Assembly: GCF_008033135.1 (NCBI RefSeq)
Contig: NZ_CP041335.1
Location: forward strand, 1,367,925-1,431,924
DNA from: Chitinolyticbacter meiyuanensis
GTDB lineage: Bacteria; Pseudomonadota; Gammaproteobacteria; Burkholderiales; Chitinibacteraceae
Direction of reading: 5' to 3'
DNA: 64,000 bases
Shown here: positions 9,259 through 61,709 of the stretch, one piece after another
Layout of the letters: each line of letters opens with the position of its first letter
How positions within the stretch are numbered: the first letter of the stretch is position 1
Program-made: the position numbers and the translations under genes
Notes under the pieces: generated by a model
Told to the model about the DNA's origin: nothing
What the model saw: the letters and a program-made list of their open reading frames with translations, nothing else
Databases searched by the model: none

Positions 9259-10498
9259 ATGCTGACCCGCTCCCACGCCCTTGCGCTCGACGCCCATGAT
9301 GAACTCGCGTCGCTGCGCAACGCCTTCGATCTCCCCCCTGGCATCTATCTCGATGGGAACTCGCTCGGCGCACTGCCGCATGCGGCCAAGGCACGGATCG
9401 CCGCGCTGATCGAGCACGAATGGGGGCAAGGGCTGATCGCCAGCTGGAACGCGGCCGGTTGGTACGCTGCGCCACGCCGCATTGGCGACCGGTTGGCACC
9501 GTGGATCGGCGCTGCGCCCGGTGAAGTGGTGGTCACCGATTCGATCTCGGTCAACCTGTTCAAGCTGCTGTCCGCTGCGCTCACGCTGCAACGCGAGCGC
9601 ACGCCGCGACGCCGGGTGATCGTGTCCGAGCGCAGCAACTTCCCCACCGATCTTTATATCGTGCAGGGCCTGATCGCCCAGCTCGATGCAGGTTACACGC
9701 TACGCCTGGTCGACGATGCGGCTGACCTGGCGAAGGCCATCGACGACGACGTCGCCGTCGTGTTGCTCACCCACGTCAACTATCGTACTGGTGCCATGCA
9801 CGATATGGCCGGCCTGACTATCCAATGCCACGCCCAGGGCGCGCTGGTGATCTGGGATCTGGCGCATTCGGCCGGGGCGGTGCCGGTCGATCTCAACGGC
9901 TGTGGAGCCGATTTCGCCGTCGGCTGCAGCTACAAATACCTGAATGCAGGCCCCGGCGCGCCGGCTTTCCTCTGGGTGCCCAAGCGGCACCAGCACCTGC
10001 CGCAGCCCTTGTCCGGCTGGTGGGGGCATGCCGATCCATTCGCGATGGCGCCACAATTTCAGGCGGCCGATGGTATTGCCCGCTTTCTCTCCGGCACGCC
10101 GTCGCCATTGGGCTCTGCGTTGCTGGGTGTTTCGCTGGATGTGTTCGAACACACCACCATGGCCATCTTGCGCGCCAAGTCGCTGGCGCTGACCGATCTC
10201 TTCATCGCGCTGGTCGAGGCGCAATGCCCGGCGCTGCAGCTGGTCACGCCGCGCGAGCACGCGGCGCGGGGCAGCCAGGTCAGCCTCTACCATGAACAGG
10301 GCTATGCCATGGTTCCAGGCACTGATCGCGCGCGGCATCGTCGGCGACTATCGCGAACCGGGCATCCTGCGCTTCGGCTTCACCCCGCTCTATACCCGCT
10401 TCGTCGACGTGTGGGATGCCGCCGCGGCGTTGACCGACGTGCTGGCGAGCCGGGCATGGGATAATCCGGCCTTCATGCAACGCGCCACGGTCACCTGA
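9259..10498 (+). pseudogene. kynU: kynureninase interrupted by a +1 frameshift near 10311-10316
   Basis: Main frame matches kynureninase to '...[10 protein letters not shown]', then runs into nonsense '[11 protein letters not shown]'. The conserved C-terminus '[34 protein letters not shown]' continues in the +1 frame (track ORF 10292..10498). Removing one base in 'atggttccaggc' restores a single frame. Confidence 0.8.
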
Positions 10499-49743: not shown

Positions 49744-50679
49744 ATGGAGTTCTTCCGCATCAAGCAGGACATCCCGTTCATGAGCTACGGCAAGCTCACG
49801 ACGGCGATCTCGTTGCTCACCTTCATCGCTGCCGTGTTCTTCCTGATGACCAAGAGCCTCAACTTCGGCGTCGAGTTCACCGGTGGCACGGTGCTGGAGC
49901 TGCGTTACGCGCAGCCTGCCGATCTGAACCAGGTACGCAGCGCCGTCGACAACCTGAAGTACGGCGAATCGCAGGTGCAGGCGCTCGGCACCACGCGCGA
50001 CGTGATGGTCCGGTTGCCCAACATCAAGACCAAGTCCAGCGCTCAGCTGTCGAACGAAGTGCTGACCGTGCTCAAGCAGCAGCGCAGCGACGTCGAGCTG
50101 CGCAAGGTCGAATTCATCGGCCCGTCGGTGGGCGAGGAGCTGGTCAGCCATGGCCTGCTGGCACTGGCGCTGGTGTGCGTCGGCATCATCGCCTACCTCG
50201 CCATCCGCTTCGAATGGCGCTTCGCGGTCTCCGCCGTGATTGCCAACATGCACGATGTGGTGATCATCCTGGGCTGCTTTGCGCTGTTCCAGTGGGAATT
50301 CTCGCTGACCGTGCTCGCCGGTATCCTCGCCGTGCTCGGCTATTCGGTGAACGAATCGGTGGTGGTGTTCGACCGGATCCGCGAAAATTTCCGCAAGCCC
50401 AATCTGCGCGGCAAGACCGTGCCGCAGGTGATCGACAATGCGATCACCGCGACGATGAGCCGGACCATCATCACCCACGGCTCGACCGAGGCGATGGTGC
50501 TGTCGATGCTGCTGTTCGGCGGCCCGGCACTGCATGGTTTCGCCATGGCACTGACCATCGGCATCGTGTTCGGCATCTATTCGTCGGTGCTGGTCGCGTC
50601 GCCCTTGCTGCTGATGTTCGGCGTCACCCGCGAGAACATGGTGAAGCCGGTGACGGTGAAGGAAGAAGCCGTCGTCTGA
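49744..50679 (+). CDS. secF: protein translocase subunit SecF
   Basis: 311 aa, 14 bp after secD. Confidence 0.95.
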   Translation: MEFFRIKQDIPFMSYGKLTTAISLLTFIAAVFFLMTKSLNFGVEFTGGTVLELRYAQPADLNQVRSAVDNLKYGESQVQALGTTRDVMVRLPNIKTKSSAQLSNEVLTVLKQQRSDVELRKVEFIGPSVGEELVSHGLLALALVCVGIIAYLAIRFEWRFAVSAVIANMHDVVIILGCFALFQWEFSLTVLAGILAVLGYSVNESVVVFDRIRENFRKPNLRGKTVPQVIDNAITATMSRTIITHGSTEAMVLSMLLFGGPALHGFAMALTIGIVFGIYSSVLVASPLLLMFGVTRENMVKPVTVKEEAVV

Positions 50680-50706
50680 TCGCCCGGTGGGCGGTCAATC
50701 CGGCAG

Positions 50707-50732
50707 ACCGGCGGCTGAGCCGCCGGTTTTTG
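50707..50732 (+). terminator. rho-independent terminator after secF
   Basis: ACCGGCGGC-tga-GCCGCCGGT followed by TTTTTG. Confidence 0.7.
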
Positions 50733-50795
50733 CTTGTGTCTGACCGTCATCGCCAACCATTAAGCTGCAACCTCCACTGCACCTGAGCCCAAGCC

Positions 50796-51437
50796 ATGGA
50801 TTTCAACCCGATTGATCTGTTCCTGCATCTCGACACCTACCTGGAAACCTTCGTGCGCGAGTACGGGGTCTGGGCCTATGCCGTGCTGTTCGCCGTGATC
50901 TTCTGTGAGACCGGCCTGGTGGTGATGCCGCTGCTGCCCGGTGATTCGCTGCTGTTCGTGGCCGGCATGCTGGCGGGGGGCGGGCTCTTCAACGTACACC
51001 TGCTGTGCCTGTTGCTGTTCATCGCTGCCGTCGCCGGGGATGCGCTCAACTACACGATTGGCCGCTATTTCGGCCACAAGCTGTTCGCCAATCCGAATTC
51101 CAAGGTGTTCCGCCGCGACCATCTGGAAAAGACCCATGCCTTCTACGAGAAGCATGGCGGCAAGACCATCATCATTGCCCGCTTCGTGCCCATCGTGCGC
51201 ACCTTCGCGCCCTTCGTTGCCGGCATGGCCGAGATGAGCTACGCCAAGTTCTTCACTTTCAACGTGGTCGGCGCCTTCGTCTGGGTGTATTCGCTGACCT
51301 TCGCCGGCTACCTGCTCGGTGGCATTTCCTTCATCAAGGACAACCTGACGCTGATCATCCTCGGCATCATCTTTGTCTCCATCCTGCCGGGCCTGATCGA
51401 AGTGGCACGCCACAAGCTGCGCCGCGCTCCGGCCTGA
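50796..51437 (+). CDS. DedA-family (SNARE-associated) membrane protein
   Basis: '[16 protein letters not shown]' and 'GRYFGHKLF' DedA motifs. Confidence 0.85.
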
Positions 51438-51452
51438 GTCCTGTTCCGCTGC

Positions 51453-52352
51453 ATGTCCGAATCGTTCTATACCGACAAGGCCGCGATGCGTGCGGCCTTC
51501 GACAAAGCGGCTACCGGCTACGATGCCGCAGCCGTGCTGCAACGCGAGGTGGCCGATCGCATGGCCGAGCGCCTCGACTACATCAAGCTGGTGCCAGGCC
51601 GGGTACTCGATGCCGGCTGTGGCACGGGGTATGCCAGCCCCATGCTGCGCGCCCGCTACCCGGAAGCCCAGCTCGTCGAACTCGACCTCGCGCCCGGCAT
51701 GCTGCAGGTGGCGCGGCAGAAAGGGCAGGGCGGCATGTTGCAGCGCTGGTTGCACCTGTTCGAGCGCAATCGCGTGCTGCAGGTGTGTGGCGACGTCGAG
51801 CGCCTGCCGATGGCCAATGCCTCGGTCGAGCTGATCTGGTCCAATCTCACGCTGCAATGGTGCAACACGCCCGATGCTGCGTTTGCCGAATTCTTCCGCG
51901 TGCTGAAGCCGGGCGGCCTATTGATGTTCTCGACGCTGGGCCCGGACACGCTGAAGGAATTGCGCACCGCGTTCGACGGCATCGACGGCCATAGCCACGT
52001 GAACCGCTTCATCGACATGCACGACTTGGGCGATGCGCTGGTGAAGGCCGGCATGGCCACGCCGGTGATGGATATGGAACAGATCACGCTGACCTATCCC
52101 GATGCCAAGGCGGTGATGCGCGACCTCAAATCGATCGGTGCGCATAACGTTACCGAGGGCCGTGGCCGTGGCCTGATGGGCAAGGCGGCCTGGCAACAGG
52201 TGGTGGCGCAATACGAGCGCTTCCGCCACGCCGGTGAGCTGCCGTGCAGCTATGAAGTGGTCTACGGCCATGCCTGGAAGCCCGAGCCACGCCCCGGCCA
52301 ACTGGCCGATGGCAGCCAGGTGATCGAATTCAGGCCGCGCCCGCGCGGCTGA
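51453..52352 (+). CDS. bioC: malonyl-[ACP] O-methyltransferase
   Basis: 'VLDAGCGTGY' SAM motif and 'VELIWSNLTLQWCN' BioC signature. bioD follows. Confidence 0.8.
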   Translation: MSESFYTDKAAMRAAFDKAATGYDAAAVLQREVADRMAERLDYIKLVPGRVLDAGCGTGYASPMLRARYPEAQLVELDLAPGMLQVARQKGQGGMLQRWLHLFERNRVLQVCGDVERLPMANASVELIWSNLTLQWCNTPDAAFAEFFRVLKPGGLLMFSTLGPDTLKELRTAFDGIDGHSHVNRFIDMHDLGDALVKAGMATPVMDMEQITLTYPDAKAVMRDLKSIGAHNVTEGRGRGLMGKAAWQQVVAQYERFRHAGELPCSYEVVYGHAWKPEPRPGQLADGSQVIEFRPRPRG

Positions 52353-52575
52353 GGCGAGGGCCGGTGTTGAACGTCACATCCAACTTCGACAACGCGCGCC
52401 ACGCGGTGGGGTTCGTGTGTTTCGATGCGACCATCGCCGAGTCGCCGACGCTGCCCGATGTGGACGCAGCGTGCTGCGCTGCTTCCATAAGTGGGCGTGT
52501 CTTGGCATCGCACTGCGAATCCGGCCGCAGCGACGATTTCACCCGCCCGGCGCTGAGCATCCATTCGGTGCGCGC

Positions 52576-53253
52576 GTGAGTATCCGCTACTTCATCACTG
52601 GCACCGACACTGAAGTCGGCAAGACTGTGGTCACCTGCCAGTTGCTGCGGGCCTTTGCCGCGCACAGCTTGCGGACAGTGGCGATGAAGCCGGTGGCCTC
52701 CGGTTGCGAGCTGGTTGCTGGCGATCTGGTCAATGCCGATGTGGTGGCGCATGCCGCTGCCGGCAACGTCGACGCGCCGCTGGCCTGGCGCAGCCCCTAT
52801 CGCTTCGCCCCGCCGATCTCGCCGCACTTGGCGGCGCGCGAGGCCGGTGTCACTGTCAGCCTCGATCACCTGGCCGATTGCGCGGATCGGCTCGGATGCC
52901 TGGCCGACGTAGTACTGGTCGAAGGGGCCGGGGGCTGGTATGCGCCACTGACCGAACATGAGACGATGGCGGACCTCGCGGTGCACCTTGCCGCACCGGT
53001 CATCCTGGTGGTGGGGATGCGGCTTGGCTGCATCAACCACGCTTTGCTGACAGCGGAGTCGATCGCCGCACGAGGTGTGCGGCTGGCCGGCTGGATCGCC
53101 AATGCGGTCGATCCCGGCATGGCGCGATATGCTGACAACGTGGCAGCGCTGCAACAGCGCATCACCGCACCGCTGCTGGCCGAGGTGGGCCACTCGTCAG
53201 ATGCAGAACGGGGCAGCCTTCCGTCGCCTGCCGTGGTAACCTTGCTGCCCTGA
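52576..53253 (+). CDS. bioD: ATP-dependent dethiobiotin synthetase (GTG start)
   Basis: '(V)SIRYFITGTDTEVGKT' canonical BioD N-terminus. Only GTG is available at this position; the track ORF extension upstream is non-homologous. Confidence 0.85.
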   Translation: MSIRYFITGTDTEVGKTVVTCQLLRAFAAHSLRTVAMKPVASGCELVAGDLVNADVVAHAAAGNVDAPLAWRSPYRFAPPISPHLAAREAGVTVSLDHLADCADRLGCLADVVLVEGAGGWYAPLTEHETMADLAVHLAAPVILVVGMRLGCINHALLTAESIAARGVRLAGWIANAVDPGMARYADNVAALQQRITAPLLAEVGHSSDAERGSLPSPAVVTLLP

Positions 53254-53329
53254 ATGCTTGCGTCAGCTAAGTGCCGGGCGCACACTTGCCGATAATAGAT
53301 ATCAGTCATCGCTTATAGAGCATGCAACC

Positions 53330-53908
53330 ATGATTGTCCGTTTGTTGCGCCTGCTGGTGTTGGTGGCCGCCATCGTGGCGCTGGCCGCCTGCTCGCGCCC
53401 GCCGTTCAAGGGCAGCGACCTGACCGGCGCCAATTTCGGCGGTGATTTCCAGCTGGTCGACCATACCGGCAAGGCCCGGCTGCTTTCCGACTACCGCGGC
53501 AAGGTGATTGCGCTGTTCTTCGGCTACACCCATTGCCCGGATGTCTGCCCCACCACCATGGCCGAGTTGTCGGCTGCGATGAAGCAGCTCGGCGACAAGG
53601 CTGGCGAGGTGCAGGTGCTGTTCGTTTCGGTCGATCCCAAGCGGGATACGCCGGCGCTGCTTTCGCAGTACGTGCCCGCCTTCAACAAGCGCTTCGTCGG
53701 CCTGACCGGTACCGAGGCGCAGGTCAGCGCAGTGGCCAAACAGTACAAGGTGGTTTACCAACGTCAGGATCAAGCTGACAGCTATACGGTCGACCATACT
53801 GCAGGCACCTATCTGCTCGATCGCAAGGGGCGGCTGCGCGTGCTGGAGAACTACGGCGCCGGCCCGGACGTGCTGGCCCATGATCTGGCGTTGCTGGTCG
53901 AGGAATGA
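53330..53908 (+). CDS. SCO1/SenC-family copper chaperone / thiol-disulfide protein
   Basis: 'FFGYTHCPDVCPTT' CxxxC motif. Single N-terminal TM/lipoprotein-like anchor. Confidence 0.85.
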   Translation: MIVRLLRLLVLVAAIVALAACSRPPFKGSDLTGANFGGDFQLVDHTGKARLLSDYRGKVIALFFGYTHCPDVCPTTMAELSAAMKQLGDKAGEVQVLFVSVDPKRDTPALLSQYVPAFNKRFVGLTGTEAQVSAVAKQYKVVYQRQDQADSYTVDHTAGTYLLDRKGRLRVLENYGAGPDVLAHDLALLVEE

Positions 53909-54669
53909 GACCGACCATGGAAGACGAACGCACTCTCGCACAGTTGCCGGACGATCCCGATCTCGAACGGTACCGCATGGTGAATCCGCTCGAGATCGGT
54001 GCCGTGTTGCGGCAGCTGCTGTCCCGCGGCGACTTTGTCACCGTGCATTTCGGTCGCGGCCAGATGATGATCACCCGCATCCTGCAGGTGGACGTCGCCT
54101 CGCGCAGCTTCTGTTTCGACTGGGCCGGGCAGGAAGAGTTGAATCGAGCGTTGCTCGCTTCCGAGCGCAATATCTGCGTGGCGGCGCCCGATGGCGTGCG
54201 CGTGCAGTTCGTGCTGCCCCGGCCGCGCGAGGCGAGGGTGGATGGCCGCCCGGCGTTTATCGTTGCCTTCCCGCCGGATCTCATCAAGCTGCAGCGCCGC
54301 GAGTTCTTTCGCATCGAAACGCCGCTGGCCCATCCCTTTGTCTGCCGCTTCGGCCTCGCCGAAGGCGCGCGGATGACATTGTCGCTGCATGATCTGTCGC
54401 TTGGCGGCATCGGGCTGTGGGCGACGCAGGATGATGCGCAACGGCTGGAGCGCGGCCTGCTGCTCCACGATGCGGTGATCGAGCTCGGTGCGGCAGGCAC
54501 CGTGCAGACCGACCTCGAAATCCGCTCGCTGCGCCCGATGACCTCGCGCACCGGCGAGGTTCGCATCCATGTCGGTTGCCGCTTCCTCAACCTGACCCGT
54601 GGTGCCGAGGCGAGCGTGCAACGGTTGATGGCGCAGCTGGAGCGCGAGCGCAAGGCGCTCACCGGCTAG
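53905..54669 (+). CDS. ycgR: flagellar brake / YcgR-like PilZ-domain c-di-GMP receptor
   Basis: YcgR N-domain, then PilZ motifs 'RREFFR' and 'DLSLGGIG'. The alternative start 53917 cannot be excluded. Confidence 0.75.
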   Translation: MRPTMEDERTLAQLPDDPDLERYRMVNPLEIGAVLRQLLSRGDFVTVHFGRGQMMITRILQVDVASRSFCFDWAGQEELNRALLASERNICVAAPDGVRVQFVLPRPREARVDGRPAFIVAFPPDLIKLQRREFFRIETPLAHPFVCRFGLAEGARMTLSLHDLSLGGIGLWATQDDAQRLERGLLLHDAVIELGAAGTVQTDLEIRSLRPMTSRTGEVRIHVGCRFLNLTRGAEASVQRLMAQLERERKALTG

Positions 54670-54680
54670 GATGCCCATGC

Positions 54681-54712
54681 AAAAAGCCGCTCCATCGAGC
54701 GGCTTTTTTTTT
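54681..54712. terminator. bidirectional rho-independent terminator between ycgR and the adh gene
   Basis: GCCGCTC-catc-GAGCGGC flanked by AAAAA and T9. Confidence 0.85.
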
Positions 54713-54720
54713 GCGGCTCG

Positions 54721-55746
54721 CTATTGCAGGTCCAGCACCACCCGGCCCAGCAACTCACCGCGTTCCATCTTGGCGAACACGTCGTTGATGTCGGCCAGCT
54801 TGGCGAGCGTGTAGTGCGCCTTCACCTTGCCGGCGGCGGCGAACGCCAGGGCTTCCTTCAGATCCTGGCGGGTGCCGACGATGGAGCCGCGGATGGTCTT
54901 GCGGGCGAGCACGATGTCGAAGATCGGTGTCTTGAAATCTCCCGGTGGCAAGCCGACCAGCGACATGGTGCCGCCACGGCGCAGTAGCGCGATGCCCTGG
55001 TCGAACGCGGCGGGCGATACGGCGGTGACCAGCACGCCATGCACGCCGCCGACATCGCGTTGCACTTCGGCCGCGACATCGCCCTGCGTGTAGTCGTAGG
55101 CAAGATCGGCGCCTAGCTCCTTGGCCAGTTGCAGCTTGTCGGCGCCACGATCGATCGCGATCACGTTGAAGCCCATGGCTTTGGCATACTGCACGGCCAC
55201 ATGGCCCAGGCCACCAACGCCGGAAATAGCCACCCACTGACCTGGTCGGGCATCAGTTTCGATCAAGCCCTTGTAGGTAGTGACACCGGCGCACAGGATG
55301 GGCGCCGCATCGAACGGATCGAGCCCCTTGGGGATGACGCCCACGTAATCGGCCGCCGCCAGGCTGTATTGCGAGAAGCCGCCGTTCACCGAATAGCCGG
55401 TGTTGTGCTGTTCGGCGCAGAGCGTTTCCCAGCCGGTGGTGCAGGGCGTGCAGTGCCCGCATGCGTCATGCAGCCATGGCACGCCGACAATGTCGCCGAC
55501 CTTGATGCGGCTGACGCCAGCGCCGAGCTTCACCACTTCGCCTACGCCCTCGTGGCCCGGGATGAATGGTGGCGCTGGTTTCACCGGCCAATCGCCGTGC
55601 GCCGCGTGCAGATCGGTGTGGCAGACGCCGCAGGCGATGTTGCGGATCAGAACCTGGCCGGGGCCAGGATCGGGGATGTTTACCTGGGTGACGTCGAGCG
55701 GTTGCTTGAATTCGCGCACCAGCGCGGCGAGGGAGGCAGTGGACAT
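54721..55746 (-). CDS. zinc-dependent alcohol dehydrogenase (AdhP-like)
   Basis: 'CGVCHTDLH', 'GHEGVG' and 'GVGGLGH' motifs. Start ATG 55746 with an AAGGAG RBS. Confidence 0.88.
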   Translation of the reverse strand: MSTASLAALVREFKQPLDVTQVNIPDPGPGQVLIRNIACGVCHTDLHAAHGDWPVKPAPPFIPGHEGVGEVVKLGAGVSRIKVGDIVGVPWLHDACGHCTPCTTGWETLCAEQHNTGYSVNGGFSQYSLAAADYVGVIPKGLDPFDAAPILCAGVTTYKGLIETDARPGQWVAISGVGGLGHVAVQYAKAMGFNVIAIDRGADKLQLAKELGADLAYDYTQGDVAAEVQRDVGGVHGVLVTAVSPAAFDQGIALLRRGGTMSLVGLPPGDFKTPIFDIVLARKTIRGSIVGTRQDLKEALAFAAAGKVKAHYTLAKLADINDVFAKMERGELLGRVVLDLQ

Positions 55747-55847
55747 GACAGGCTCCTTGGAATCCGCCGTGGCTTGTCGGCACACGACGGCTGGACTGGT
55801 CGAAGCGCCGGGATCACCGGCTTGCCCGATCAGTCTAGTCGCTGGAC

Positions 55848-56774
55848 CTATCTTTTCCTTTGATTTGCCGCAAGCTCGGCGTGTGCGGCAAAAAAGTCGT
55901 CGACCGTGGCGTAGCGCAGCCGCATGCCTAGCTCGACCTTGAGCCGATGGTTGATCATCCGCCGCGATTCGTTCAGATACGACAACATGGCCGGACTGAG
56001 CCGCGTTTGCGCCTCGCTGCGGCTGACGCGCGGTGGCCGCGCCAGCCCGGCTGCATCGGCCACCCGGTCGAACCAGTCGGCCATTGGCTGCGGTGCGTCG
56101 TCGCTGGCGTGGTAGCACCGCAACGGGCGGGCGCGGAACAGCGCCAGGCTGACAATGCGGGCGAGGTCATCGGCGTGGATGTGGTTGCTGTAGCTGTCCT
56201 CGGCGGCATGCAGCACCACGTCGCCGCGCGCCACGCGATCCACCGGCAGCCGGTTGGTGGCATAAATGCCCGGTGCGCGTAATAGGCCGAGCTCCACATG
56301 CCGACGGCGGGCCCATCGTCGCAGTTGCTGTTCCGCGTCCAGCCGGCGCCAAGCCCTGTCGTTGTTGGGGCGGGCCGGCCGGGTTTCAGGTAGCCACGCA
56401 CCGGCGCAGTCGCCATAGATGCCGCTGGTGCCGATGTAGACGGCGCGGCGGGGTGCTAGAATCGGGCCATTGCCGCGCGGGCGCGCTAGTGCTGCCAGCA
56501 GCCGGCGGGTTCGGCGGTCGGTTCGGCCGGTCGCTGCAGGCGGCGCGCTGTGGATCAGCGCATTGGCGATGCCGGCCAGTCGAGCCAGGCTGGCGCGCCG
56601 GTCGAGATCGGCCGGAACTGGTACCACGCCGAGCGCGCGCAGGCGCGCTGCTGCTTCGGCGGTACGCGCGGTGGCGTAGAGCCGGAAGCGCCGTTCCAGC
56701 CAGGGCAGCGCGCGTTCGAGCACATCGCCACAGCCGATCAGCAACAGGCGTCGCGCAGCCCTTCGTTTTTGCAT
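55848..56774 (-). CDS. NAD-dependent epimerase/dehydratase-family (SDR) protein
   Basis: 'LLLIGCGDVLERAL' Rossmann start and atypical SDR features. Arg-rich. Confidence 0.6.
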   Translation of the reverse strand: MQKRRAARRLLLIGCGDVLERALPWLERRFRLYATARTAEAAARLRALGVVPVPADLDRRASLARLAGIANALIHSAPPAATGRTDRRTRRLLAALARPRGNGPILAPRRAVYIGTSGIYGDCAGAWLPETRPARPNNDRAWRRLDAEQQLRRWARRRHVELGLLRAPGIYATNRLPVDRVARGDVVLHAAEDSYSNHIHADDLARIVSLALFRARPLRCYHASDDAPQPMADWFDRVADAAGLARPPRVSRSEAQTRLSPAMLSYLNESRRMINHRLKVELGMRLRYATVDDFFAAHAELAANQRKR

Positions 56775-56794
56775 TGCAATCCTAAGATTCCAGA

Positions 56795-57823
56795 ATGACC
56801 AAGCAACTTACCATCCAGCCCTCGGGCCAGCAAATCACCGCGGACGACGACGAAACCATCCTCGCCGCGGCCCTGCGCGCCGGTTTCAACATGCCCTACG
56901 GCTGCAAGAACGGCGCCTGTGGTGCTTGCAAGGGGCAGGTGCTGTCGGGCGAAGTCATGCATGGCGACCACGCGGAATCCGCGTTGTCGCACACCGAGAT
57001 GAGCCGGGGCGTGGCGCTGTTTTGCTGTGCCAAGCCGGTGGGCGACGTGGTGATCGAATGCAAGGAAATCTCGGCGACCAAGGATATCCAGATCAAGACG
57101 CTGCCGTGCCGGGTGGAGGCCATCGATAAGGTCTCGCACGATGTGGCGGTGCTCAAGCTCAAGTTGCCCACCACCGAGCGGCTGCAGTTCCTCGCCGGCC
57201 AGTACATCGATATCCATGCCAAGGGCGGCAAGAAGCGCAGCTTCTCGATCGCTAACGCGCCGCACGAGGACGATCACATCCAGCTACACATCCGCCATGT
57301 GCCGGGCGGCGAGTTCTCCGAATACGTATGGAGCACCATGCAGTTGAAGGAGATCTTCCGCTTCACCGGGCCGCTGGGGTCGTTCTTCCTGCGCGAGGAC
57401 AGCGACAAGCCCATCCTGTTCATTGCCACCGGCACCGGCTTTGCGCCGATCAAGGGCATGCTGCAGTACGCCTTCCAGAAGGGCATCGAGCGCGAGATGG
57501 TGCTGTACTGGGGGGCTCGCACGCTGGCCGATCTCTATATGCCGGAGCTGCCCAGCGAATGGCAGCAGCAGCATCCCAACTTCACCTTCATCCCGGTGCT
57601 GTCCGAACCCAAGCCCGAGGACAACTGGCCGGGCCGGATCGGCTTCGTGCACGAAGCGGCGCTGGAGGATTTCGGCAGCCTCGCCGGTTACCAGGTCTAT
57701 GCCTGTGGCGCGCCGGTGATGGTGGAGGCCGCGTACAAGCACTTCGTAGCGCGCAAGCTGCCCGAGGACGAGTTCTTCTCGGACGCCTTCTTCACCACCA
57801 AAGACCTCGCGACCAAGTTGTGA
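56795..57823 (+). CDS. 2Fe-2S ferredoxin / FAD / NAD(P)-binding oxidoreductase (CDP-6-deoxy-delta-3,4-glucoseen reductase-like)
   Basis: 'CKNGACGACKGQVLSG...LFCCA' plant-type ferredoxin cysteines, then 'RSFSIAN' FAD and 'ATGTGFAP' NAD motifs. Confidence 0.8.
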   Translation: MTKQLTIQPSGQQITADDDETILAAALRAGFNMPYGCKNGACGACKGQVLSGEVMHGDHAESALSHTEMSRGVALFCCAKPVGDVVIECKEISATKDIQIKTLPCRVEAIDKVSHDVAVLKLKLPTTERLQFLAGQYIDIHAKGGKKRSFSIANAPHEDDHIQLHIRHVPGGEFSEYVWSTMQLKEIFRFTGPLGSFFLREDSDKPILFIATGTGFAPIKGMLQYAFQKGIEREMVLYWGARTLADLYMPELPSEWQQQHPNFTFIPVLSEPKPEDNWPGRIGFVHEAALEDFGSLAGYQVYACGAPVMVEAAYKHFVARKLPEDEFFSDAFFTTKDLATKL

Positions 57824-57829
57824 GCGGCG

Positions 57830-58519
57830 ATGGCGATGCACATCCTGATCGTCGAAGACGACGCCGACATCGCCGCCAACCTGCATGACTATCTCTCCGC
57901 GCGCGGCCATCAGGTCGACGCCGCGCCCGGTGGACTGGTCGCGCTGCATCTGGCGGCCAGCACGCCGTTCGACGCCATCGTGCTCGATCTCGGCCTGCCG
58001 GGCGTCGATGGCCTGACGGTGGCGCAACGGCTGCGGCAGGATGCGCGCCTCGCCACGCCCATCCTGATGCTGACTGCGCGTGACACGCTCGACGACAAGC
58101 TCGACGGTTTCGCGGCCGGTGCCGACGACTACCTCGTCAAGCCATTCGCGCTCAAGGAAGTGGAAGTGCGGCTGGCCGCGCTGGTGAAACGGGCACAGGG
58201 CCGGGTGGTCGATGGCAGCTTGCATCTGGGAGCGCTCGACTACGATCCGGTCAGCGGCGTCGCCTGCTGGCACGGCGATGAACTCGCGTTGCCTCCCAAG
58301 GCGCTGCAACTGCTGGTGATCTTGCTGGGGCGTCCCGGCCAATTGTTCAGCCGCAGCACGCTGGAACTGGCGATCTGGGGAGAGGAGCAGGAGACCAGCG
58401 ATGCATTGCGCACCCAGCTGTCGGTATTGCGCCGGGCGCTGACGGCGCCAGCATGGGCCTGCCCGCTGATCACCGTGCATGGCCGCGGCTACAAGCTGGT
58501 CGACCCTGATGCGGCCTGA
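57830..58519 (+). CDS. OmpR-family response regulator (PmrA/BasR-like)
   Basis: REC 'ILIVEDDADIAANL...DAIVLDLGLPGVDG' and a winged-helix C-terminus. Confidence 0.85.
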   Translation: MAMHILIVEDDADIAANLHDYLSARGHQVDAAPGGLVALHLAASTPFDAIVLDLGLPGVDGLTVAQRLRQDARLATPILMLTARDTLDDKLDGFAAGADDYLVKPFALKEVEVRLAALVKRAQGRVVDGSLHLGALDYDPVSGVACWHGDELALPPKALQLLVILLGRPGQLFSRSTLELAIWGEEQETSDALRTQLSVLRRALTAPAWACPLITVHGRGYKLVDPDAA

Positions 58520-59780
58520 ACGCCAGACTCGCCGACGCAGCCTGCGCTGGCGACTCGCCCTTGCCTTTGCGCTGCTGACCACGCTGGCGCTGGTGGCGCA
58601 GGCCGTGGCGCTGTTCGTTGCCAGCGAGGAGCAGGAAGAGGATCTGATCGACGAGGTGGTGAACACGGCGCTCGATGGCGTGATCGCCGCCCGGGCGCGG
58701 GGCGAGCAGCCGACGCTGGCGGCCCACCTCACCACCTTCGACGCGCCTGCAGGAGCCTGGCCGCCCGGCCTGCCCGAGCCGCTGCGCGCCTTCCCGGTCG
58801 GCAACCACGAGTGGTACGCCGGCGAGACGGAGTTCCATGTCGGGGTGCGTGATACGGCAGGGCGACGTTTCTACGTGCTGTACGACACGGCGGCGCACGA
58901 AGCCCGGCTGGACATGCTGCTGGTGGCACTGGCAGCCGGCGTGGTGGTGCTGGCGCTGCTTGCGTTGTGGCTGGGCATCTGGCTGTCTGGCGCGCTGCTG
59001 CGGCAACTCGGTGAGTTGGCGCAGCGGGTAACGGCCGATGCGGCAGAGCCATTGGCCCGACCGGATCAGGATCTGGAAGTGGCAAGCCTGGCAATGGCAC
59101 TCGACGAGTATCGGCAGCGCAATGCCGAGTTGATCGCGCGTGAGCGCGAATTCACCGCCAATGTCAGTCATGAACTGCGCACGCCGCTGACCCGGATCCG
59201 GACCGGCGCGGAGCTGCTGGCGGAGCAGGGCGATGCGCGGGCACAGCGGGTGATGTCGGCGGTCGATGAGCTGGAGCGGCGCTTGCGCGGGCTGCTGTTC
59301 CTCGCGCGGGCCGAGGCCGAACCGCGCCCCGAACCGGTGTGGTTGCACACGTTCGTGGCCGAGGTGCTGGCGAACCACGCAAAGCCTGCGGAGGCCAAGG
59401 GCCTGGCATTGCACAATCGGGTTGCCACTGATGTCGTGCTCGAGGCTGATCCGGCACTGCTCGGGTTGGCGCTCGACAACCTGGTCGGCAACGCGGTGCG
59501 CTATACCATGGTGGGTTCGGTCAGCCTCGATTTCGCTGCCGGCTGGTTGAGCGTCACCGATACCGGGATTGGCATTGCCAGCGAACGCCAGCAAGCGGTA
59601 TTCGAGCGCCATGTGCGCCTGACCGATGCGGGCGACGGCATGGGCTTGGGGCTGGCCATCGTGCGGCAAGCGGCTGATCGCTGCGGCTGGGCATGCCGGC
59701 TCGACAGCGCGCCGGGGCAGGGCAGCGTTTTTGCGTTGCGGCTGGCGAGCCTCACGGAATCCTCATACAACCCCGTGTAA
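58509..59780 (+). CDS. sensor histidine kinase (PmrB/BasS-like)
   Basis: Two TM, HAMP, HisKA 'NVSHELRTPL' and HATPase 'GMGLGLAIV'. Overlaps the response-regulator stop by 11 bp. Confidence 0.85.
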   Translation: MRPERQTRRRSLRWRLALAFALLTTLALVAQAVALFVASEEQEEDLIDEVVNTALDGVIAARARGEQPTLAAHLTTFDAPAGAWPPGLPEPLRAFPVGNHEWYAGETEFHVGVRDTAGRRFYVLYDTAAHEARLDMLLVALAAGVVVLALLALWLGIWLSGALLRQLGELAQRVTADAAEPLARPDQDLEVASLAMALDEYRQRNAELIAREREFTANVSHELRTPLTRIRTGAELLAEQGDARAQRVMSAVDELERRLRGLLFLARAEAEPRPEPVWLHTFVAEVLANHAKPAEAKGLALHNRVATDVVLEADPALLGLALDNLVGNAVRYTMVGSVSLDFAAGWLSVTDTGIGIASERQQAVFERHVRLTDAGDGMGLGLAIVRQAADRCGWACRLDSAPGQGSVFALRLASLTESSYNPV

Positions 59781-59799
59781 AGTACGCGGCCCACCTCAC

Positions 59800-60310
59800 T
59801 ATCGTGGCGGCTGTCTTAATCTGGGCGTGCTGCCGGCCTGGCTGGTGTGGCGTGTACCGCTGGCATGGTGCCCGCTGCCCACTGCGCCGGGAGCCTGTCT
59901 TCAAACTGGCGTTGATCTGTGGCTCGCTGTTGCTGATCCTGCTGACCGCGCTGCTCTACTACCAGATCTTTGCCTCGGTGGTACGCAACCATCGCGAGTT
60001 GCGCTGGCTGCTGACGCCGACCAACTATCTCCAGGCGGCCGACAGTTATGTACGCCAGCGTCTGAGGCGACCGCGCCAGCTCGTGCCGATCACGCCCGAT
60101 GCCTGCCGCGCTGCAGTATGAACTACGCATGCGCGCAAATCGCTGACGGTGATCGTGGTGGGCGAGACCGCACGGGCAGATCACTTCGACCTCAATGGCT
60201 ACCCACTCGACACCACGCCGCAGCTGGCGGGCACTGCCGGTCTGATCAATTACGACATCTTCTGGTCCTGCGGTACTGAAATCGCAGTCTCGGTGCGAGC
60301 ATGTTCTTGG
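59800..60310 (+). pseudogene. eptA: remnant of a phosphoethanolamine transferase gene (eptA/pmrC-like)
   Basis: Frame-2 translation 'LLYYQIFASVVRNHRELRWLLTPTNYL...' resembles EptA residues ~150-210. After an in-frame TGA at 60119, 'IVVGETARADHFDLNGY...SCGTEIAVSV' resembles the start of the sulfatase domain. N-terminal TM region and C-terminal ~250 aa are absent. Confidence 0.65.
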
Positions 60311-60603
60311 GGCTGGGGCGGGAGCCTCGGGCGGCTTTGCCTTGCTGGCATTCTATTTCGCGCTGCGCGAGCGCAAACCCCGCTGTGCCTATGCTGCCGG
60401 TGCCGCTGCACTGATGCTGGGTGGGGTCATGGTGGGGGCAGGCCATGCGTGGCGCGCACGTCCTGTCGCATGCGCTGTGGTCTGCCCGGTGGGTCTGGAT
60501 GGTGTTGCTAGGCCTCTACATCGCGTATCCACCACTTGATTATCCATAAATAATGGATTACTAATATTAAAGTGTAGCGCATGCTGCACTCCTTTCGAAT
60601 TCA

Positions 60604-60630
60604 CCCCGCGAGCAGTCGCGGGGTTTTTTT
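60604..60630 (+). terminator. rho-independent terminator
   Basis: CCCCGCGA-gcag-TCGCGGGG followed by T7. Confidence 0.85.
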
Positions 60631-60827
60631 ATGCGCTGCGTCCGTTGACACGGTATGACCCCCTCTCTAAATTGGCATCTCGGTCGCCGTGTGCGGCGAC
60701 CAGAAGAACAAGGCATGCCGTGCCTTGGCCGACCATGTGCGGGCAAAGCGACGGCAAGTGGTATGGGAACAGCTGGCAAGTGGTCTGCCCGGAAAGCGGA
60801 TGGACCCACGAATCGAGGGAGTGCGGC

Positions 60828-61709
60828 ATGAGCAATATCGAATATCTGATCGGCGTGGACGGCGGCGGTACCGGGACCCGGATCTGCATTGCCGATCTAT
60901 CCGGTAAGGAGCTGGTACGCGCCGATGGCGGCGCCTCTGCGCTGGGGCAAGGTATCGACAAGGCGTGGACCAACATCACGCTGGCGATCCGCGCAGGTTT
61001 CGAGAAGCTGGGCGTCGAGCGCCCCGATTTCAGCCGCTGCGCCGCAGGCTTTGGTTTGTCCGGCGTCACCGTGAAGGCTTGGGCGCAGGAGTTCGAGAAC
61101 AAGAATCCGGGCTTTGCTCGCATCGTGGTCGAGACGGATGGTTTTTCCACGCTGCTGGGCGCACACAACGGCGCGCACGGCGGCATCATCGCCATTGGTA
61201 CGGGTTCGATCGGCGAAGCATGGCTGCCGGACGGCAAGCGACTGGAAGTCGGCGGCTGGGGTTTCCCGACCTCGGACGAAGGCTCGGGCGCCTATCTGGG
61301 CCTCAAGGCCATCAACCTGGTGCAGCGTGTGGTTGATGGCCGTGCGCCGCATACCCCGTTCACCCGCAAGCTGACGAGCGTGACCGGTGACAGCCGCGAA
61401 ACCGTGTTCGAGTGGATGGCCGGCATGAAGCAGGGCGAGTGTGCTTCGCTGTCGCCCATCGTCGTCGAGTTCGGCCAGTCGGACGAAACCGCGCGCCATT
61501 TCCTGCACGAAGCCGGGCGCGAGATCGAGATCATCGGCCAAGCACTGCGTGCCGATGCGCCGTCGCTGCCAATCGCCTTGTGTGGCGGCGGGCTGTCGCA
61601 AGCGATCCGGCCTTATATCCCGGCCGCATTCCTTGCATCCACCACGTTGCCGGTCAAGGATTCCTGCGCCGGTGCGCTGATACTGATCCATCGCGCTGTC
61701 TCGGCTTGA
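60828..61709 (+). CDS. BadF/BadG/BcrA/BcrD-type ATPase, N-acetylglucosamine kinase-like
   Basis: 'YLIGVDGGGTGTRICIAD' and 'GTGSIG' ASKHA motifs. Start 'MSNIEY' with a GAGGGA RBS. Confidence 0.75.
   Translation: MSNIEYLIGVDGGGTGTRICIADLSGKELVRADGGASALGQGIDKAWTNITLAIRAGFEKLGVERPDFSRCAAGFGLSGVTVKAWAQEFENKNPGFARIVVETDGFSTLLGAHNGAHGGIIAIGTGSIGEAWLPDGKRLEVGGWGFPTSDEGSGAYLGLKAINLVQRVVDGRAPHTPFTRKLTSVTGDSRETVFEWMAGMKQGECASLSPIVVEFGQSDETARHFLHEAGREIEIIGQALRADAPSLPIALCGGGLSQAIRPYIPAAFLASTTLPVKDSCAGALILIHRAVSA

What the first reader, a model, noticed from the sequence alone, without database searches (positions are those of the whole stretch)
59781..60640. Decayed eptA/pmrC-like gene immediately downstream of a PmrAB-like two-component system
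Frame-2 translation after the kinase stop gives stretches resembling EptA residues ~150-300: 'YQIFASVVRNHRELRWLLTPTNYL' and 'IVVGETARADHFDLNGYP...SCGTEIAVSV'. There is an in-frame TGA at 60119-60121, no N-terminal TM region, and no C-terminal catalytic half. A strong terminator survives at 60604-60630. This suggests that a PmrAB-controlled lipid A phosphoethanolamine transferase was lost by deletion, with consequences for polymyxin/cationic-peptide resistance and for what the two-component system now regulates.
Basis: partly seen in the sequence, partly recalled or inferred. Interest (0 to 1): 0.55.

Follow-up and report, generated by a model that had tools for sequence, protein, structure and literature searches.

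The report
Decayed eptA–pap2 lipid A genes
The 770 bases after the sensor kinase are the dead, twice-deleted remains of two lipid A modification genes (eptA and its partner phosphatase pap2), an ordinary case of gene decay; the two-component regulator next to them is still kept intact by selection.

Summary
The window comes from Chitinolyticbacter meiyuanensis. Related genomes carry RR–HK–eptA (about 550 aa)–pap2 (about 247 aa) between the same flanking genes. Here only 769 nt lie between the kinase stop and the pap2 stop.

- 59821-60325 matches EptA codons about 142-308 (tblastn E 5e-57).

The lesions are:
- a clean 432-nt deletion at 59820|59821, which removed the SD, the start codon and TM1-4;
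- a +7-nt frameshift at 59875-81;
- TGG→TGA at 60119-21;
- the nucleophile Thr→Ile at 60281-83;
- a 1-nt loss near 60296;
- a deletion of about 1.25 kb that fuses eptA to pap2 near 60325;
- a 2-nt loss at about 60433-46.

A sister strain (98% identical flanks) keeps the 432 nt but shares the TGA, so the nonsense mutation came before the deletion. Between the two strains the remnant differs by about 6%, which looks neutral. The RR and HK show 24 synonymous and 2 non-synonymous codon changes, so the regulator is still functional.

C. albus lost the module independently through a different deletion of about 3.5 kb. The surviving terminator belongs to a conserved sRNA-like element.

The parts
57830..58519 (+). 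OmpR-family response regulator, intact (context; its adjacent target genes have been lost)
   Evidence: Pfam Response_reg E 4e-25 plus Trans_reg_C E 1.5e-12. Best NCBIfam hits are QseB, RppA and PmrA, all below cut-off. Against the sister strain L076 there are 6 synonymous and 1 non-synonymous codon changes.
58509..59780 (+). Sensor histidine kinase, intact (423 aa from Met-11; the 433-aa ORF starts at 58479)
   Evidence: Pfam HisKA plus HATPase_c. 100% identical to P0012 / WP_148714856.1 of C. meiyuanensis. Best NCBIfam hit is PmrB at 120 bits against a cut-off of 314. Against L076 there are 18 synonymous and 1 non-synonymous codon changes.
59751..59767 (+). Degenerate copy (CTCACGGAATCCTCATA) of the direct-repeat box CTCACAAAANCCTCACA that precedes eptA in every relative sampled with an intact gene. 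It lies inside the last codons of the HK.
   Evidence: The box was found once per locus, always at the HK-eptA (or HK-pap2) junction, in 10 loci and in none of the 35 other loci held. The window copy is the only match with up to 2 mismatches in 64 kb, and is orthologous in position to the L037 copy.
59781..59820 (+). Surviving 40-nt 5' stub of the HK-eptA spacer. It includes a -10-like TATCGT (59800-59805) at the conserved +49 offset from the box.
   Evidence: Aligns base for base with L076 9273-9312, with 5 of 40 differences. The +49 offset of a TANNNT hexamer is conserved in L037, L039, L040, L041, L002 and L044.
59820..59821 (.). Junction of deletion 1. Exactly 432 nt were lost: the last 16 nt of the leader with the SD, the start codon and about the first 139 codons (TM1-4).
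   Evidence: L076 1-9312 aligns with window 50513-59820, and L076 9745-10248 with window 59821-60332. The 432 nt at L076 9313-9744 are absent from the window.
59821..60325 (+). eptA pseudogene remnant, corresponding to codons about 142-308 of a 552-aa EptA
   Evidence: blastn against L037 7756-8254 gives 70.6% identity. tblastn E 5e-57. 68% aa identity to L037 EptA over 157 residues. Pfam EptA_B_N plus Sulfatase N-terminus.
59875..59881 (+). 7-nt insertion (CTGCCCA) that shifts the frame; specific to the window
   Evidence: Absent from both L076 and L037 in alignment A1. tblastn changes frame here.
60119..60121 (+). TGA nonsense codon at a conserved Trp (TGG); shared with the sister strain L076
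   Evidence: Alignments. The window and L076 both read ...ATGAACTACGCATGCG, where L037 has TGG.
60206..60208 (+). Leu (CTC) replacing an Arg invariant in six intact orthologues (NGYxR[DEN]T); specific to the window
   Evidence: Alignments. L076 keeps CGC.
60281..60283 (+). Ile (ATC) replacing the catalytic nucleophile Thr of the CGTxT motif (Thr285 of MCR-1, Thr280 of Neisseria EptA, numbering from my own knowledge); specific to the window
   Evidence: Alignments to MCR-1 and 5FGN and to six orthologues, all of which read SCGTETAVS. L076 keeps ACC.
60295..60297 (+). Loss of 1 nt (GTGCCGAGC to GTGCGAGC) that shifts the frame. EptA similarity continues as MFLGLGRE in the next frame.
   Evidence: L076 and L037 both have the extra C.
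60323..60328 (.). Junction of deletion 2. About 1.25 kb were lost: eptA codons about 309 to the end and pap2 codons 1 to about 172. At most 2-3 nt (GC/GCC) are shared at the junction, which sits in G-rich sequence.
   Evidence: EptA homology ends at window 60325 (L037 8254). PAP2 homology starts at window 60324 (L040 9533), with 1254 nt lying between these points in L040.
60326..60549 (+). pap2 (PAP2-family lipid phosphatase) pseudogene remnant, codons about 173 to the stop. A net 2-nt loss at about 60433-60446 shifts the frame. The original stop TAA is at 60547-60549. The C3-motif remnant MRGAHVLSH is at 60445-60471.
   Evidence: tblastn with L041 PAP2 gives E 5e-22 in two frames, and with L002 PAP2 E 2e-16. 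blastn against L040 9533-9910. Compared with the C. albus sequence. No Pfam hit on the remnant itself.
60158..60511 (+). ORF annotated in RefSeq as hypothetical protein WP_373281829.1 (117 aa). It is a chance reading frame that runs from the EptA fragment across the fusion into out-of-frame pap2 sequence.
   Evidence: P0003 sequence and accession. Frame analysis.
60603..60630 (+). Intrinsic terminator, conserved in position. It is the 3' end of a conserved sRNA-like element and the end point for any read-through from the RR-HK genes.
   Evidence: 9-bp stem, 7 G-C pairs, T-run. (z = -3.6). Conserved in C. albus, Chitiniphilus eburneus and C. shinanonensis with changed stem sequences.

Best explanation
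Positions 59781-60549 are the non-functional wreck of a two-gene lipid A modification module, eptA-pap2. In the ancestor this module sat directly downstream of, and was probably controlled by, the OmpR-type two-component system at 57830-59780.

Shown:
- The ancestral order RR-HK-eptA-pap2 is intact between the same flanking genes in related Chitinibacteraceae.
- The window retains only EptA codons about 142-308 and PAP2 codons about 173 to the end. They are joined by a deletion of about 1.25 kb and preceded by a clean 432-nt deletion that removed the ribosome-binding site, the start codon and TM1-4.
- The remnant carries a nonsense codon, three frameshifts and a substitution of the catalytic threonine.
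- The nonsense codon is shared with a sister strain that lacks the 432-nt deletion. Inactivation by point mutation therefore came first, and at least this deletion followed it (whether the second deletion is shared with the sister strain is unknown).
- Since the two strains split, the remnant has diverged at about the synonymous-site rate of its neighbours. RR and HK have accumulated almost only synonymous changes.

Inferred:
- No product with EptA or PAP2 activity can be made, so this locus no longer adds phosphoethanolamine to lipid A.
- The two-component system still works and must have at least one other target or role.
- RR-HK transcripts, and any transcription from the decaying eptA promoter stub, run through the remnant to the terminator at 60603-60630.
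- That terminator is preserved because it belongs to an independent conserved sRNA-like element and insulates the downstream GlcNAc-kinase gene.
For: - Family identity: Pfam EptA_B_N and Sulfatase hits. PDB hits to MCR-1 and Neisseria EptA.
- Orthology and synteny. The order is ADH, epimerase, Fer2 reductase, RR, HK, EptA, PAP2, BadF/G kinase, GntR in Chitiniphilus. The window has the same flanks.
- Collinearity and deletion boundaries.
- Lesions.
- Shared TGA versus window-specific lesions.
- Rates: the remnant has 29 mismatches plus 9 gap columns in 494 columns. HK has 18 synonymous and 1 non-synonymous codon changes; RR has 6 and 1.
- Independent loss in C. albus with different breakpoints (RR codon about 171 joined to pap2 codon about 125), while a MAG 97.5% identical to it keeps RR-HK-eptA intact.
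- Operator: the box CTCACRAAANNNTCAC is present in all 10 loci that have an intact eptA (or pap2-eptA) after the HK. It is degenerate in the window and in L076.
Against: - Nothing contradicts the pseudogene reading.
- Expression was not measured, so read-through and promoter activity are inferences.
- The first inactivating event cannot be named with certainty. The window lacks the 5' 139 codons where L076 has further lesions. The L076 contig ends at the point equivalent to window 60332, so it is unknown whether deletion 2 is shared.
- Some single-base frameshifts could in principle be sequencing errors. The two deletions and the TGA cannot be errors, because the TGA appears in independent assemblies.
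- Regulation of eptA-pap2 by this RR is inferred only from conserved linkage and a conserved direct repeat.
Confidence: 0.93

Rival explanations
1. The remnant has been put to a new use. The regulator-dependent promoter stub (box 59751-59767, -10 at 59800-59805) still drives a non-coding transcript across the remnant, or feeds into the downstream sRNA-like element, so the sequence is kept as a regulatory RNA or 3' UTR.
For: - The box and a TANNNT hexamer at the conserved +49 offset survive directly upstream of the deletion junction.
- There is no terminator between the HK and 60603.
- Both independent deletions (window and C. albus) spared the 3' end of pap2 and everything downstream.
Against: - The remnant diverges from the sister strain at about 6% with indels, as neutral DNA would.
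- The 40-nt stub differs at 5 of 40 positions, and L076 has lost the final T of the -10-like hexamer.
- The box deviates from the otherwise strict consensus at 4 positions.
- C. albus removed the whole promoter region.
Confidence: 0.07
2. The annotated 117-aa ORF (60158-60511, WP_373281829.1), or the 142-aa ORF 59693-60121, encodes a real new protein derived from EptA.
For: An ORF of 117-120 aa exists and RefSeq calls it a hypothetical protein. Its first about 45 residues are well-conserved EptA sequence.
Against: - It has a GTG start with no evident SD.
- It has no signal peptide or TM segment, although the parent domain is periplasmic.
- It contains only profile positions 3-52 of a 301-position fold, and the nucleophile is mutated.
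- The remaining about 70 residues are out-of-frame pap2 sequence.
- The protein cluster has a single member.
- In L076 the reading-frame structure differs: there is no 1-nt loss near 60296, and there are different frameshifts upstream.
Confidence: 0.02
3. The gaps and frameshifts are assembly or sequencing artefacts, and the strain actually has intact genes.
For: Single-base indels in G-runs (about 60296 and about 60433-46) are of the kind long-read assemblies produce.
Against: - Independent short-read Logan assemblies from two runs (L076, L077) show a pseudogene at the same place. It has the same TGA and many shared substitutions, at 92% identity to the window remnant.
- The 432-nt and the about 1.25-kb deletions are not flanked by repeats that could collapse an assembly.
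- The window matches a single 4.33-Mb contig.
Confidence: 0.02

Closest known systems
EptA/PmrC (LptA) and MCR lipid A phosphoethanolamine transferases (Pfam PF08019 + PF00884; NCBIfam NF028537)
   Same: The remnant descends from a gene of this family. It is 68% identical to the intact syntenic orthologue over 157 residues. It aligns to MCR-1 residues 193-325 and Neisseria EptA residues 150-282. It keeps the VVGETARAD and SCGT motifs. The intact orthologues score 620-633 bits on NF028537, above the cut-off of 500.
   Different: Only about 30% of the gene is left. There is no start codon, no TM1-4, and none of the catalytic domain beyond about residue 308. It has a stop codon and frameshifts, and the nucleophile Thr is replaced by Ile. 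It is a pseudogene, not a functional member.
PAP2 lipid phosphatases found next to PEtN transferases, such as pap2 downstream of mcr-1/mcr-2 (NCBIfam NF028536, NF028538). From my own knowledge: the lpxE-eptA pair of Helicobacter pylori.
   Same: In relatives a 245-256-aa PAP2 gene follows eptA (overlapping it in some loci), in the same order as mcr-1-pap2. PMC10285318 reports pap2 and dgkA as accessory genes typical of mcr contexts. The window keeps the last third of that gene.
   Different: The orthologues score only 74 and 67 bits on the two NCBIfam models, against cut-offs of 275 and 475, so they are a separate PAP2 lineage. The window copy lacks motifs C1 and C2 and is frameshifted. No biochemical role is known for this lineage.
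pmrCAB / basRS-eptA type operons, in which a two-component system is linked to eptA
   Same: An OmpR-family RR and a HisKA kinase are genetically linked to eptA. PmrB is the best NCBIfam hit for the HK, and PmrA is among the top three for the RR. [quoted passage not shown] The candidate operator has the hexamer-N5-hexamer layout of OmpR-family sites.
   Different: - The gene order is RR-HK-eptA-pap2, not eptA-RR-HK.
- Scores are far below the equivalog cut-offs.
- The repeat is CTCACA-N5-CTCACA, not the CTTAAT-type PmrA box (the latter recalled from my own knowledge).
- Combining a two-component system with pap2 is described as unusual in PMC10285318, which reports a single such gene.
- In the window the effector genes are dead.
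Pseudogenisation of accessory envelope-modification genes by a point mutation followed by deletional erosion (general bacterial pseudogene decay)
   Same: The order of events matches: a nonsense mutation first, then frameshifts and deletions. The substitution rate is neutral. Related lineages show independent deletions.
   Different: Nothing unusual, except that the cognate regulator is demonstrably still under purifying selection.

Membership tests
EptA/MCR phosphoethanolamine transferase (functional member) | Complete N-terminal five-helix membrane domain (PF08019) | tested here: not met
   Only profile positions 86-151 of 152 are matched. Codons 1 to about 139 were removed by the 432-nt deletion.
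EptA/MCR phosphoethanolamine transferase (functional member) | Complete periplasmic sulfatase-fold catalytic domain (PF00884, about 300 positions) | tested here: not met
   Only profile positions 3-52 of 301 are matched. Everything after about codon 308 is deleted.
EptA/MCR phosphoethanolamine transferase (functional member) | Catalytic nucleophile threonine in the CGTxT motif | tested here: not met
   The window reads SCGTEIAVSV, while six orthologues, MCR-1 and 5FGN have Thr. The sister strain still has ACC.
EptA/MCR phosphoethanolamine transferase (functional member) | Uninterrupted reading frame with a start codon | tested here: not met
   There is no start codon. TGA at 60119-21, a +7-nt insertion at 59875-81 and a 1-nt loss near 60296.
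EptA/MCR phosphoethanolamine transferase (descent from the family) | Significant sequence similarity plus orthologous genomic position | tested here: met
   tblastn E 5e-57. Identical flanking genes in L037, L039, L040 and L041.
PAP2 phosphatase (PF01569) | Three conserved motifs: C1 (K..RP or HCPWD-type), C2 (P[SG]GH) and C3 (R...H...[DH]) | tested here: not met
   C1 and the His of C2 lie in the deleted part. Only C3 (MRGAHVLSH) is left, and it is in a different frame from the preceding segment. The remnant gives no Pfam hit.
PAP2 phosphatase (descent from the family) | Similarity to the syntenic pap2 of relatives | tested here: met
   tblastn E 5e-22 (L041) and 2e-16 (L002), split over two frames. 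blastn to L040 runs through the stop codon into the shared spacer.
PmrA/PmrB (BasR/BasS) two-component system | Equivalog-level similarity to PmrA and PmrB | tested here: not met
   PmrB scores 119.6 bits against a cut-off of 314. PmrA scores 140.3 against 330, and QseB scores higher at 151.
PmrA/PmrB (BasR/BasS) two-component system | Genetic linkage to a lipid A PEtN transferase gene | tested here: met
   eptA lies directly after the orthologous HK in 10 of 12 relatives' loci inspected: L001, L002, L003, L037, L038, L039, L040, L041, L043 and L044. L004 and L045 lack it. The gene order differs from pmrCAB.
PmrA/PmrB (BasR/BasS) two-component system | PmrA-box operator and Fe3+/acid sensing through periplasmic ExxE motifs | tested here: inconclusive
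   Relatives carry CTCACA-N5-CTCACA: the same architecture but a different sequence. A conserved acidic SEE(Q/L)EE(D/E)LIDE stretch follows TM1 in the window HK and in L037, L039, L040 and L041, but what it binds is unknown.

The most novel reading that the evidence does not exclude
The eptA-pap2 module is being discarded repeatedly in the genus Chitinolyticbacter. There are two independent losses with different breakpoints, one of them in a lineage 97.5% identical to a genome that still has the module. In C. meiyuanensis the orphaned two-component system stays under strong purifying selection. That implies it has been rewired to, or always had, other targets. The conserved sRNA-like element immediately downstream, whose -35 lies in the pap2 3' end, is one possible target.
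Probability: 0.15. Interest if true: 0.5.

Novelty: new member of a known kind. Interest (0 to 1): 0.27.

Why it matters
The finding has three modest consequences.

1. It corrects an annotation. RefSeq WP_373281829.1 is a chance ORF over a fusion of two pseudogenes.

2. It predicts a phenotype. Unless a second eptA exists, C. meiyuanensis should lack regulator-induced phosphoethanolamine on lipid A. It should then be more sensitive to polymyxins and other cationic agents than Chitiniphilus or the Chitinolyticbacter MAG lineage.

3. It offers a small natural experiment. The effector genes of a dedicated-looking two-component system have died, yet the regulator shows 24 synonymous against 2 non-synonymous codon changes. 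The system must therefore do something else. Comparison with C. albus, which lost the regulator too, could show what.

The conserved CTCACA-N5-CTCACA box gives a testable operator for a widespread betaproteobacterial eptA regulator. None of this is surprising to a specialist.

Tried and rejected
- **First protein search with the remnant.** It returned only short fragments and the local hypothetical protein, so it was of little use for orthology.
- **Exact-product look-ups for the 433-aa HK, P0003 and the GntR protein.** Nothing was found, because gene calls differ. Cluster members had to be used instead.
- **An extra +1 frameshift at about 59812-59823.** I first suspected this lesion, and read 59777-59820 as EptA codons 131-141 (VKYAAHLTIVAAV...). 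The sister-strain alignment shows that 59781-59820 is spacer and that the deletion junction is at 59820|59821, so both ideas are withdrawn.
- **Microhomology at deletion 2.** I first read a GGGGC..GC microhomology of about 10 nt there. With the C. albus and L076 sequences, only 2-3 shared nt can be supported.
- **MAFFT alignment A1.** It misplaces the window's gap. The blastn coordinates and manual inspection were used instead.
- **eptA remnants in L045 and L004.** I tested whether these loci, which have RR-HK without eptA, hide remnants. There were no tblastn hits.
- **Metagenome scan with the conserved 18-mer ATGCTGCACTCCTTTCGA.** The 30 hits all have unrelated flanks, and many look like the reverse complement of a ribosome-binding site plus ATG. 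They are chance matches.
- **A minus-strand 24-aa ORF with a strong SD at 60579-60505.** Rejected, because its ATG is ATA in Chitiniphilus.
- **Rfam.** Only sub-threshold hits: OmrA-B at 26 bits against a gathering score of 40, and the betaproteobacterial toxic sRNA at 22 against 50. No membership is claimed.
- **Second eptA copy.** The window holds none (no other hit better than E 0.08).
- **Literature.** No paper mentions Chitinolyticbacter together with polymyxin.
Full report
**What is in the sequence**

The RR gene (57830-58519) and the HK gene (58479/58509-59780) are intact and have the expected Pfam domains. After the HK stop there is no long ORF until the BadF/BadG-type kinase gene at 60828.

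The TGA is at 60119-60121. A strong hairpin with a T-run lies at 60603-60630. Pfam recognises the stitched translation as EptA_B_N (E 2e-12, profile positions 86-151 of 152) followed by the first 50 positions of the Sulfatase domain (E 1.8e-6). The translation aligns to full-length MCR-1 (residues 193-325, E 4e-17) and to Neisseria EptA 5FGN (residues 150-282, E 1.6e-13).

**Source organism and synteny**

The HK is 100% identical to a protein on a 4,325,960-bp contig of Chitinolyticbacter meiyuanensis (WP_148714856.1). The ORF 60158-60511 is RefSeq hypothetical protein WP_373281829.1.

Orthologous kinases at 54-72% identity were traced to their contigs:
- In Chitiniphilus eburneus (L039) and C. 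shinanonensis (L040) the order is ADH, epimerase-like gene, Fer2/FAD reductase, RR, HK, EptA (546 aa), PAP2 (245-248 aa), BadF/G kinase, GntR. The window has the same flanks.
- Andreprevotia (L041) and a Chitinolyticbacter sp. MAG (L037, whose contig ends after eptA) show the same core.
- Soil MAGs L002 and L003 have RR-HK-EptA-PAP2.
- Chitinibacter has RR-HK-PAP2-EptA, and Paracidovorax has RR-HK-EptA.
- Two relatives, L004 and L045, have the RR-HK pair with neither eptA nor any remnant of it.

The intact EptAs pass the NCBIfam model for phosphoethanolamine--lipid A transferase (620-633 bits, cut-off 500). The PAP2 proteins resemble the 'PAP2 lipid A phosphatase' and 'PAP2 near MCR-1' models but fall below their cut-offs.

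**Anatomy of the remnant**

At nucleotide level, three stretches are collinear with relatives:
- window 59601-59780 with the end of the L037 HK;
- window 59821-60325 with L037 7756-8254, which is EptA codons 142-308;
- window 60324-60685 with L040 9533-9910, which is PAP2 codon 173 through the stop codon into the shared downstream spacer.

With the intact proteins as queries, tblastn gives E 5e-57 for EptA and E 5e-22 for PAP2. The PAP2 match is split over two frames.

The distance between the HK stop and the pap2 stop is 769 nt here, against about 2.45-2.5 kb in relatives. The disabling lesions are these:

| Lesion | Position |
|---|---|
| 432-nt deletion | 59820\|59821 |
| 7-nt insertion | 59875-59881 |
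| TGG→TGA | 60119-60121 |
| Arg→Leu at an invariant position | 60206-60208 |
| Nucleophile Thr→Ile | 60281-60283 |
| 1-nt loss | about 60296 |
| Deletion of about 1.25 kb fusing EptA codon about 308-311 to PAP2 codon about 173 | about 60325 |
| Net 2-nt loss in pap2 | about 60433-60446 |

The pap2 His of motif C2 lies in the deleted part. Only the C3 remnant MRGAHVLSH is left.

**Order of events**

The HK cluster contained a Logan assembly protein, which led to two contigs (L076, L077) from a sister strain. Its 9.3 kb of flanking sequence are 98.1% identical to the window.

That strain still has the 432 nt missing from the window (L076 9313-9744). This fixes the junction exactly and shows that 59781-59820 is the surviving 5' part of the spacer. 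Its eptA is nevertheless also dead, with its own frameshifts and a TAG. It shares the TGA at the conserved Trp codon, along with several substitutions. The 7-nt insertion, Thr→Ile, Arg→Leu and the 1-nt loss are specific to the window.

A point mutation (the TGA, or an unseen 5' lesion) therefore inactivated eptA before the two strains split. At least the 432-nt deletion in the window came later. The L076 contig stops in a (GGGGCT)n run at the equivalent of window 60332. Whether deletion 2 is shared remains open.

**Rates of change**

Between the window and L076 the remnant shows 29 mismatches and 9 gap columns in 494 columns, about 6%. The spacer stub shows 5 differences in 40 positions. The HK has 18 synonymous and 1 non-synonymous codon changes, and the RR has 6 and 1, similar to or stricter than neighbouring housekeeping genes.

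The remnant thus evolves at roughly the synonymous rate of its neighbours, which means neutrally. The two-component system has stayed under strong purifying selection throughout a period in which eptA was already dead. About 730 nt of remnant collected five disabling events, and 1.95 kb of RR-HK collected none.

The comparison with the more distant L037 still shows a third-position excess (0.25/0.19/0.50). This fits a loss that happened after the split from that lineage.

**A second, independent loss**

In C. albus (L078) the reductase gene is followed by a 210-aa truncated RR. This is joined directly to pap2 codon about 125, then to the same downstream spacer and the kinase gene. A single deletion of roughly 3.5 kb removed the RR DNA-binding domain, the HK, eptA and half of pap2.

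L078 is 97.5% identical over 1.66 kb to the MAG L037, which retains intact RR-HK-eptA. The module has therefore been lost at least twice in this genus, by different routes, and one of these losses is very recent.

**Regulation**

All relatives with an intact eptA (or pap2-eptA) after the HK carry the direct repeat CTCACAAAANCCTCACA, once per locus. A TANNNT hexamer sits exactly 49 nt downstream of the first repeat. The pattern CTCACRAAANNNTCAC matched 10 loci, only at this place, and none of the 35 other loci held.

The hexamer-N5-hexamer layout is that of OmpR-family operators, including the PmrA box, but the sequence is different. I treat it as the candidate binding site of this RR.

In Chitinolyticbacter the box lies inside the last HK codons. 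The window copy (59751-59767, CTCACGGAATCCTCATA) and the L076 copy have drifted from the consensus. The window keeps TATCGT at +49, while L076 has TATCGC. The 432-nt deletion starts 15 nt after that hexamer. I read this as a promoter fossil rather than a retained function, given its rate of change.

'PmrAB-like' is acceptable as a loose label only. PmrB is the top NCBIfam hit for the HK (120 bits, cut-off 314), and QseB, RppA and PmrA lead for the RR (151-140 bits, cut-offs of 250 or more). PMC10285318 reports that canonical eptA genes sit with two-component systems and mcr genes with pap2 or dgkA. The ancestral locus here combined both contexts, which that paper describes as unusual.

**Why the terminator survives**

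The stretch from the pap2 stop to the terminator is conserved in C. albus and both Chitiniphilus species. It contains these elements:
- a -35-like TTGAnn inside the last pap2 codons (60537-60542 in the window);
- a 17-nt gap, then TAMTAAT;
- a 7-bp hairpin, GUGUAGC/GCUGCAC;
- an invariant single-stranded CUCCUUUCGA;
- a terminator whose stem sequence differs between genera but still pairs.

Rfam gives only sub-threshold hits (OmrA-B at 26 bits against a gathering score of 40). This looks like a small independent sRNA gene. Both independent deletions spared it. The terminator is therefore conserved for its own reasons, and it also ends any read-through from RR-HK.

**Verdict**

This is a well-resolved but ordinary case of gene decay in known families. 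It is new only as an instance and as an annotation correction. The phenotypic consequences and the present regulon of the two-component system remain untested.

Noticed in passing
window 60537-60631 (also L078 about 9720-9810, L039 9741-9835, L040 9764-9858): Candidate small RNA gene between pap2 and the GlcNAc-kinase gene. It has a -35-like TTGATT (60537-42), a 17-nt gap, TACTAAT (60560-66), a 7-bp hairpin (60573-60590), an invariant single-stranded CUCCUUUCGA (anti-SD-like), and the terminator at 60603-60630. It is conserved in C. albus and two Chitiniphilus species, with altered but still pairing terminator stems. It is absent from Andreprevotia, which has a tRNA there. Rfam gives only sub-threshold hits: OmrA-B at 26 bits against 40, and the betaproteobacterial toxic sRNA at 22 against 50.
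   Followed up: partly
L037 7249-7264, L039 7279-7294, L040 7301-7316, L041 7305-7320, L002 2356-2371, L044 6276-6291, L043 6326-6341; window 59751-59767: Direct repeat CTCACAAAANCCTCACA with a TANNNT hexamer at a fixed +49 offset, found only between the HK and eptA (or pap2). It is a candidate operator and promoter for this widespread betaproteobacterial RR. In Chitinolyticbacter it is embedded in the last HK codons.
   Followed up: partly
L078 8846-10000 (Chitinolyticbacter albus, JANBVF010000027.1): Independent deletion of about 3.5 kb joining RR codon about 171 to pap2 codon about 125. It leaves a 210-aa receiver-only ORF. The MAG L037, 97.5% identical in the shared 1.66 kb, has the intact RR-HK-eptA.
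   Followed up: yes
L076 9329-10248 and L077 (Logan SRR25491728, SRR25491737): Sister strain of the window genome with a longer but also dead eptA. The start codon is present, with at least two frameshifts, a TAG, a 12-nt in-frame deletion and the shared TGA. Its HK stops four codons earlier than in the window (ESS* against ESSYNPV*). Both contigs end near a (GGGGCT)n run.
   Followed up: yes
window 60158-60511: RefSeq WP_373281829.1 'hypothetical protein' is a chance ORF spanning the eptA/pap2 fusion. The locus would be better annotated as two pseudogene fragments.
   Followed up: yes
window 60750-60792; L039 and L040, 200-260 nt after the pap2 stop: Conserved GGCAAGTGGTATG and AAGTGGTCT motifs upstream of the BadF/G kinase-GntR genes. 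From my own knowledge they resemble GntR/NagQ-type operators. A promoter-like site lies at 60645-60673. The 13-mer GTGGTCTGCCCGG occurs twice (60477-60489 inside the pap2 remnant and 60780-60792), which is probably chance.
   Followed up: no
L045 6370-6713 (Noviherbaspirillum denitrificans): The orthologous RR-HK pair is followed by a 114-aa hydrophobic ORF with no Pfam hit and no similarity to EptA or PAP2, then a short esterase fragment on the other strand. This may be another eroded neighbourhood.
   Followed up: partly
window HK residues about 48-58 (about 58620-58655) and orthologues: A conserved acidic stretch, SEE(Q/L)EE(D/E)LIDE, directly follows the first TM helix of the kinase in the window, L037, L039, L040 and L041. 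From my own knowledge it is reminiscent of the ExxE metal-binding motifs of PmrB.
   Followed up: no
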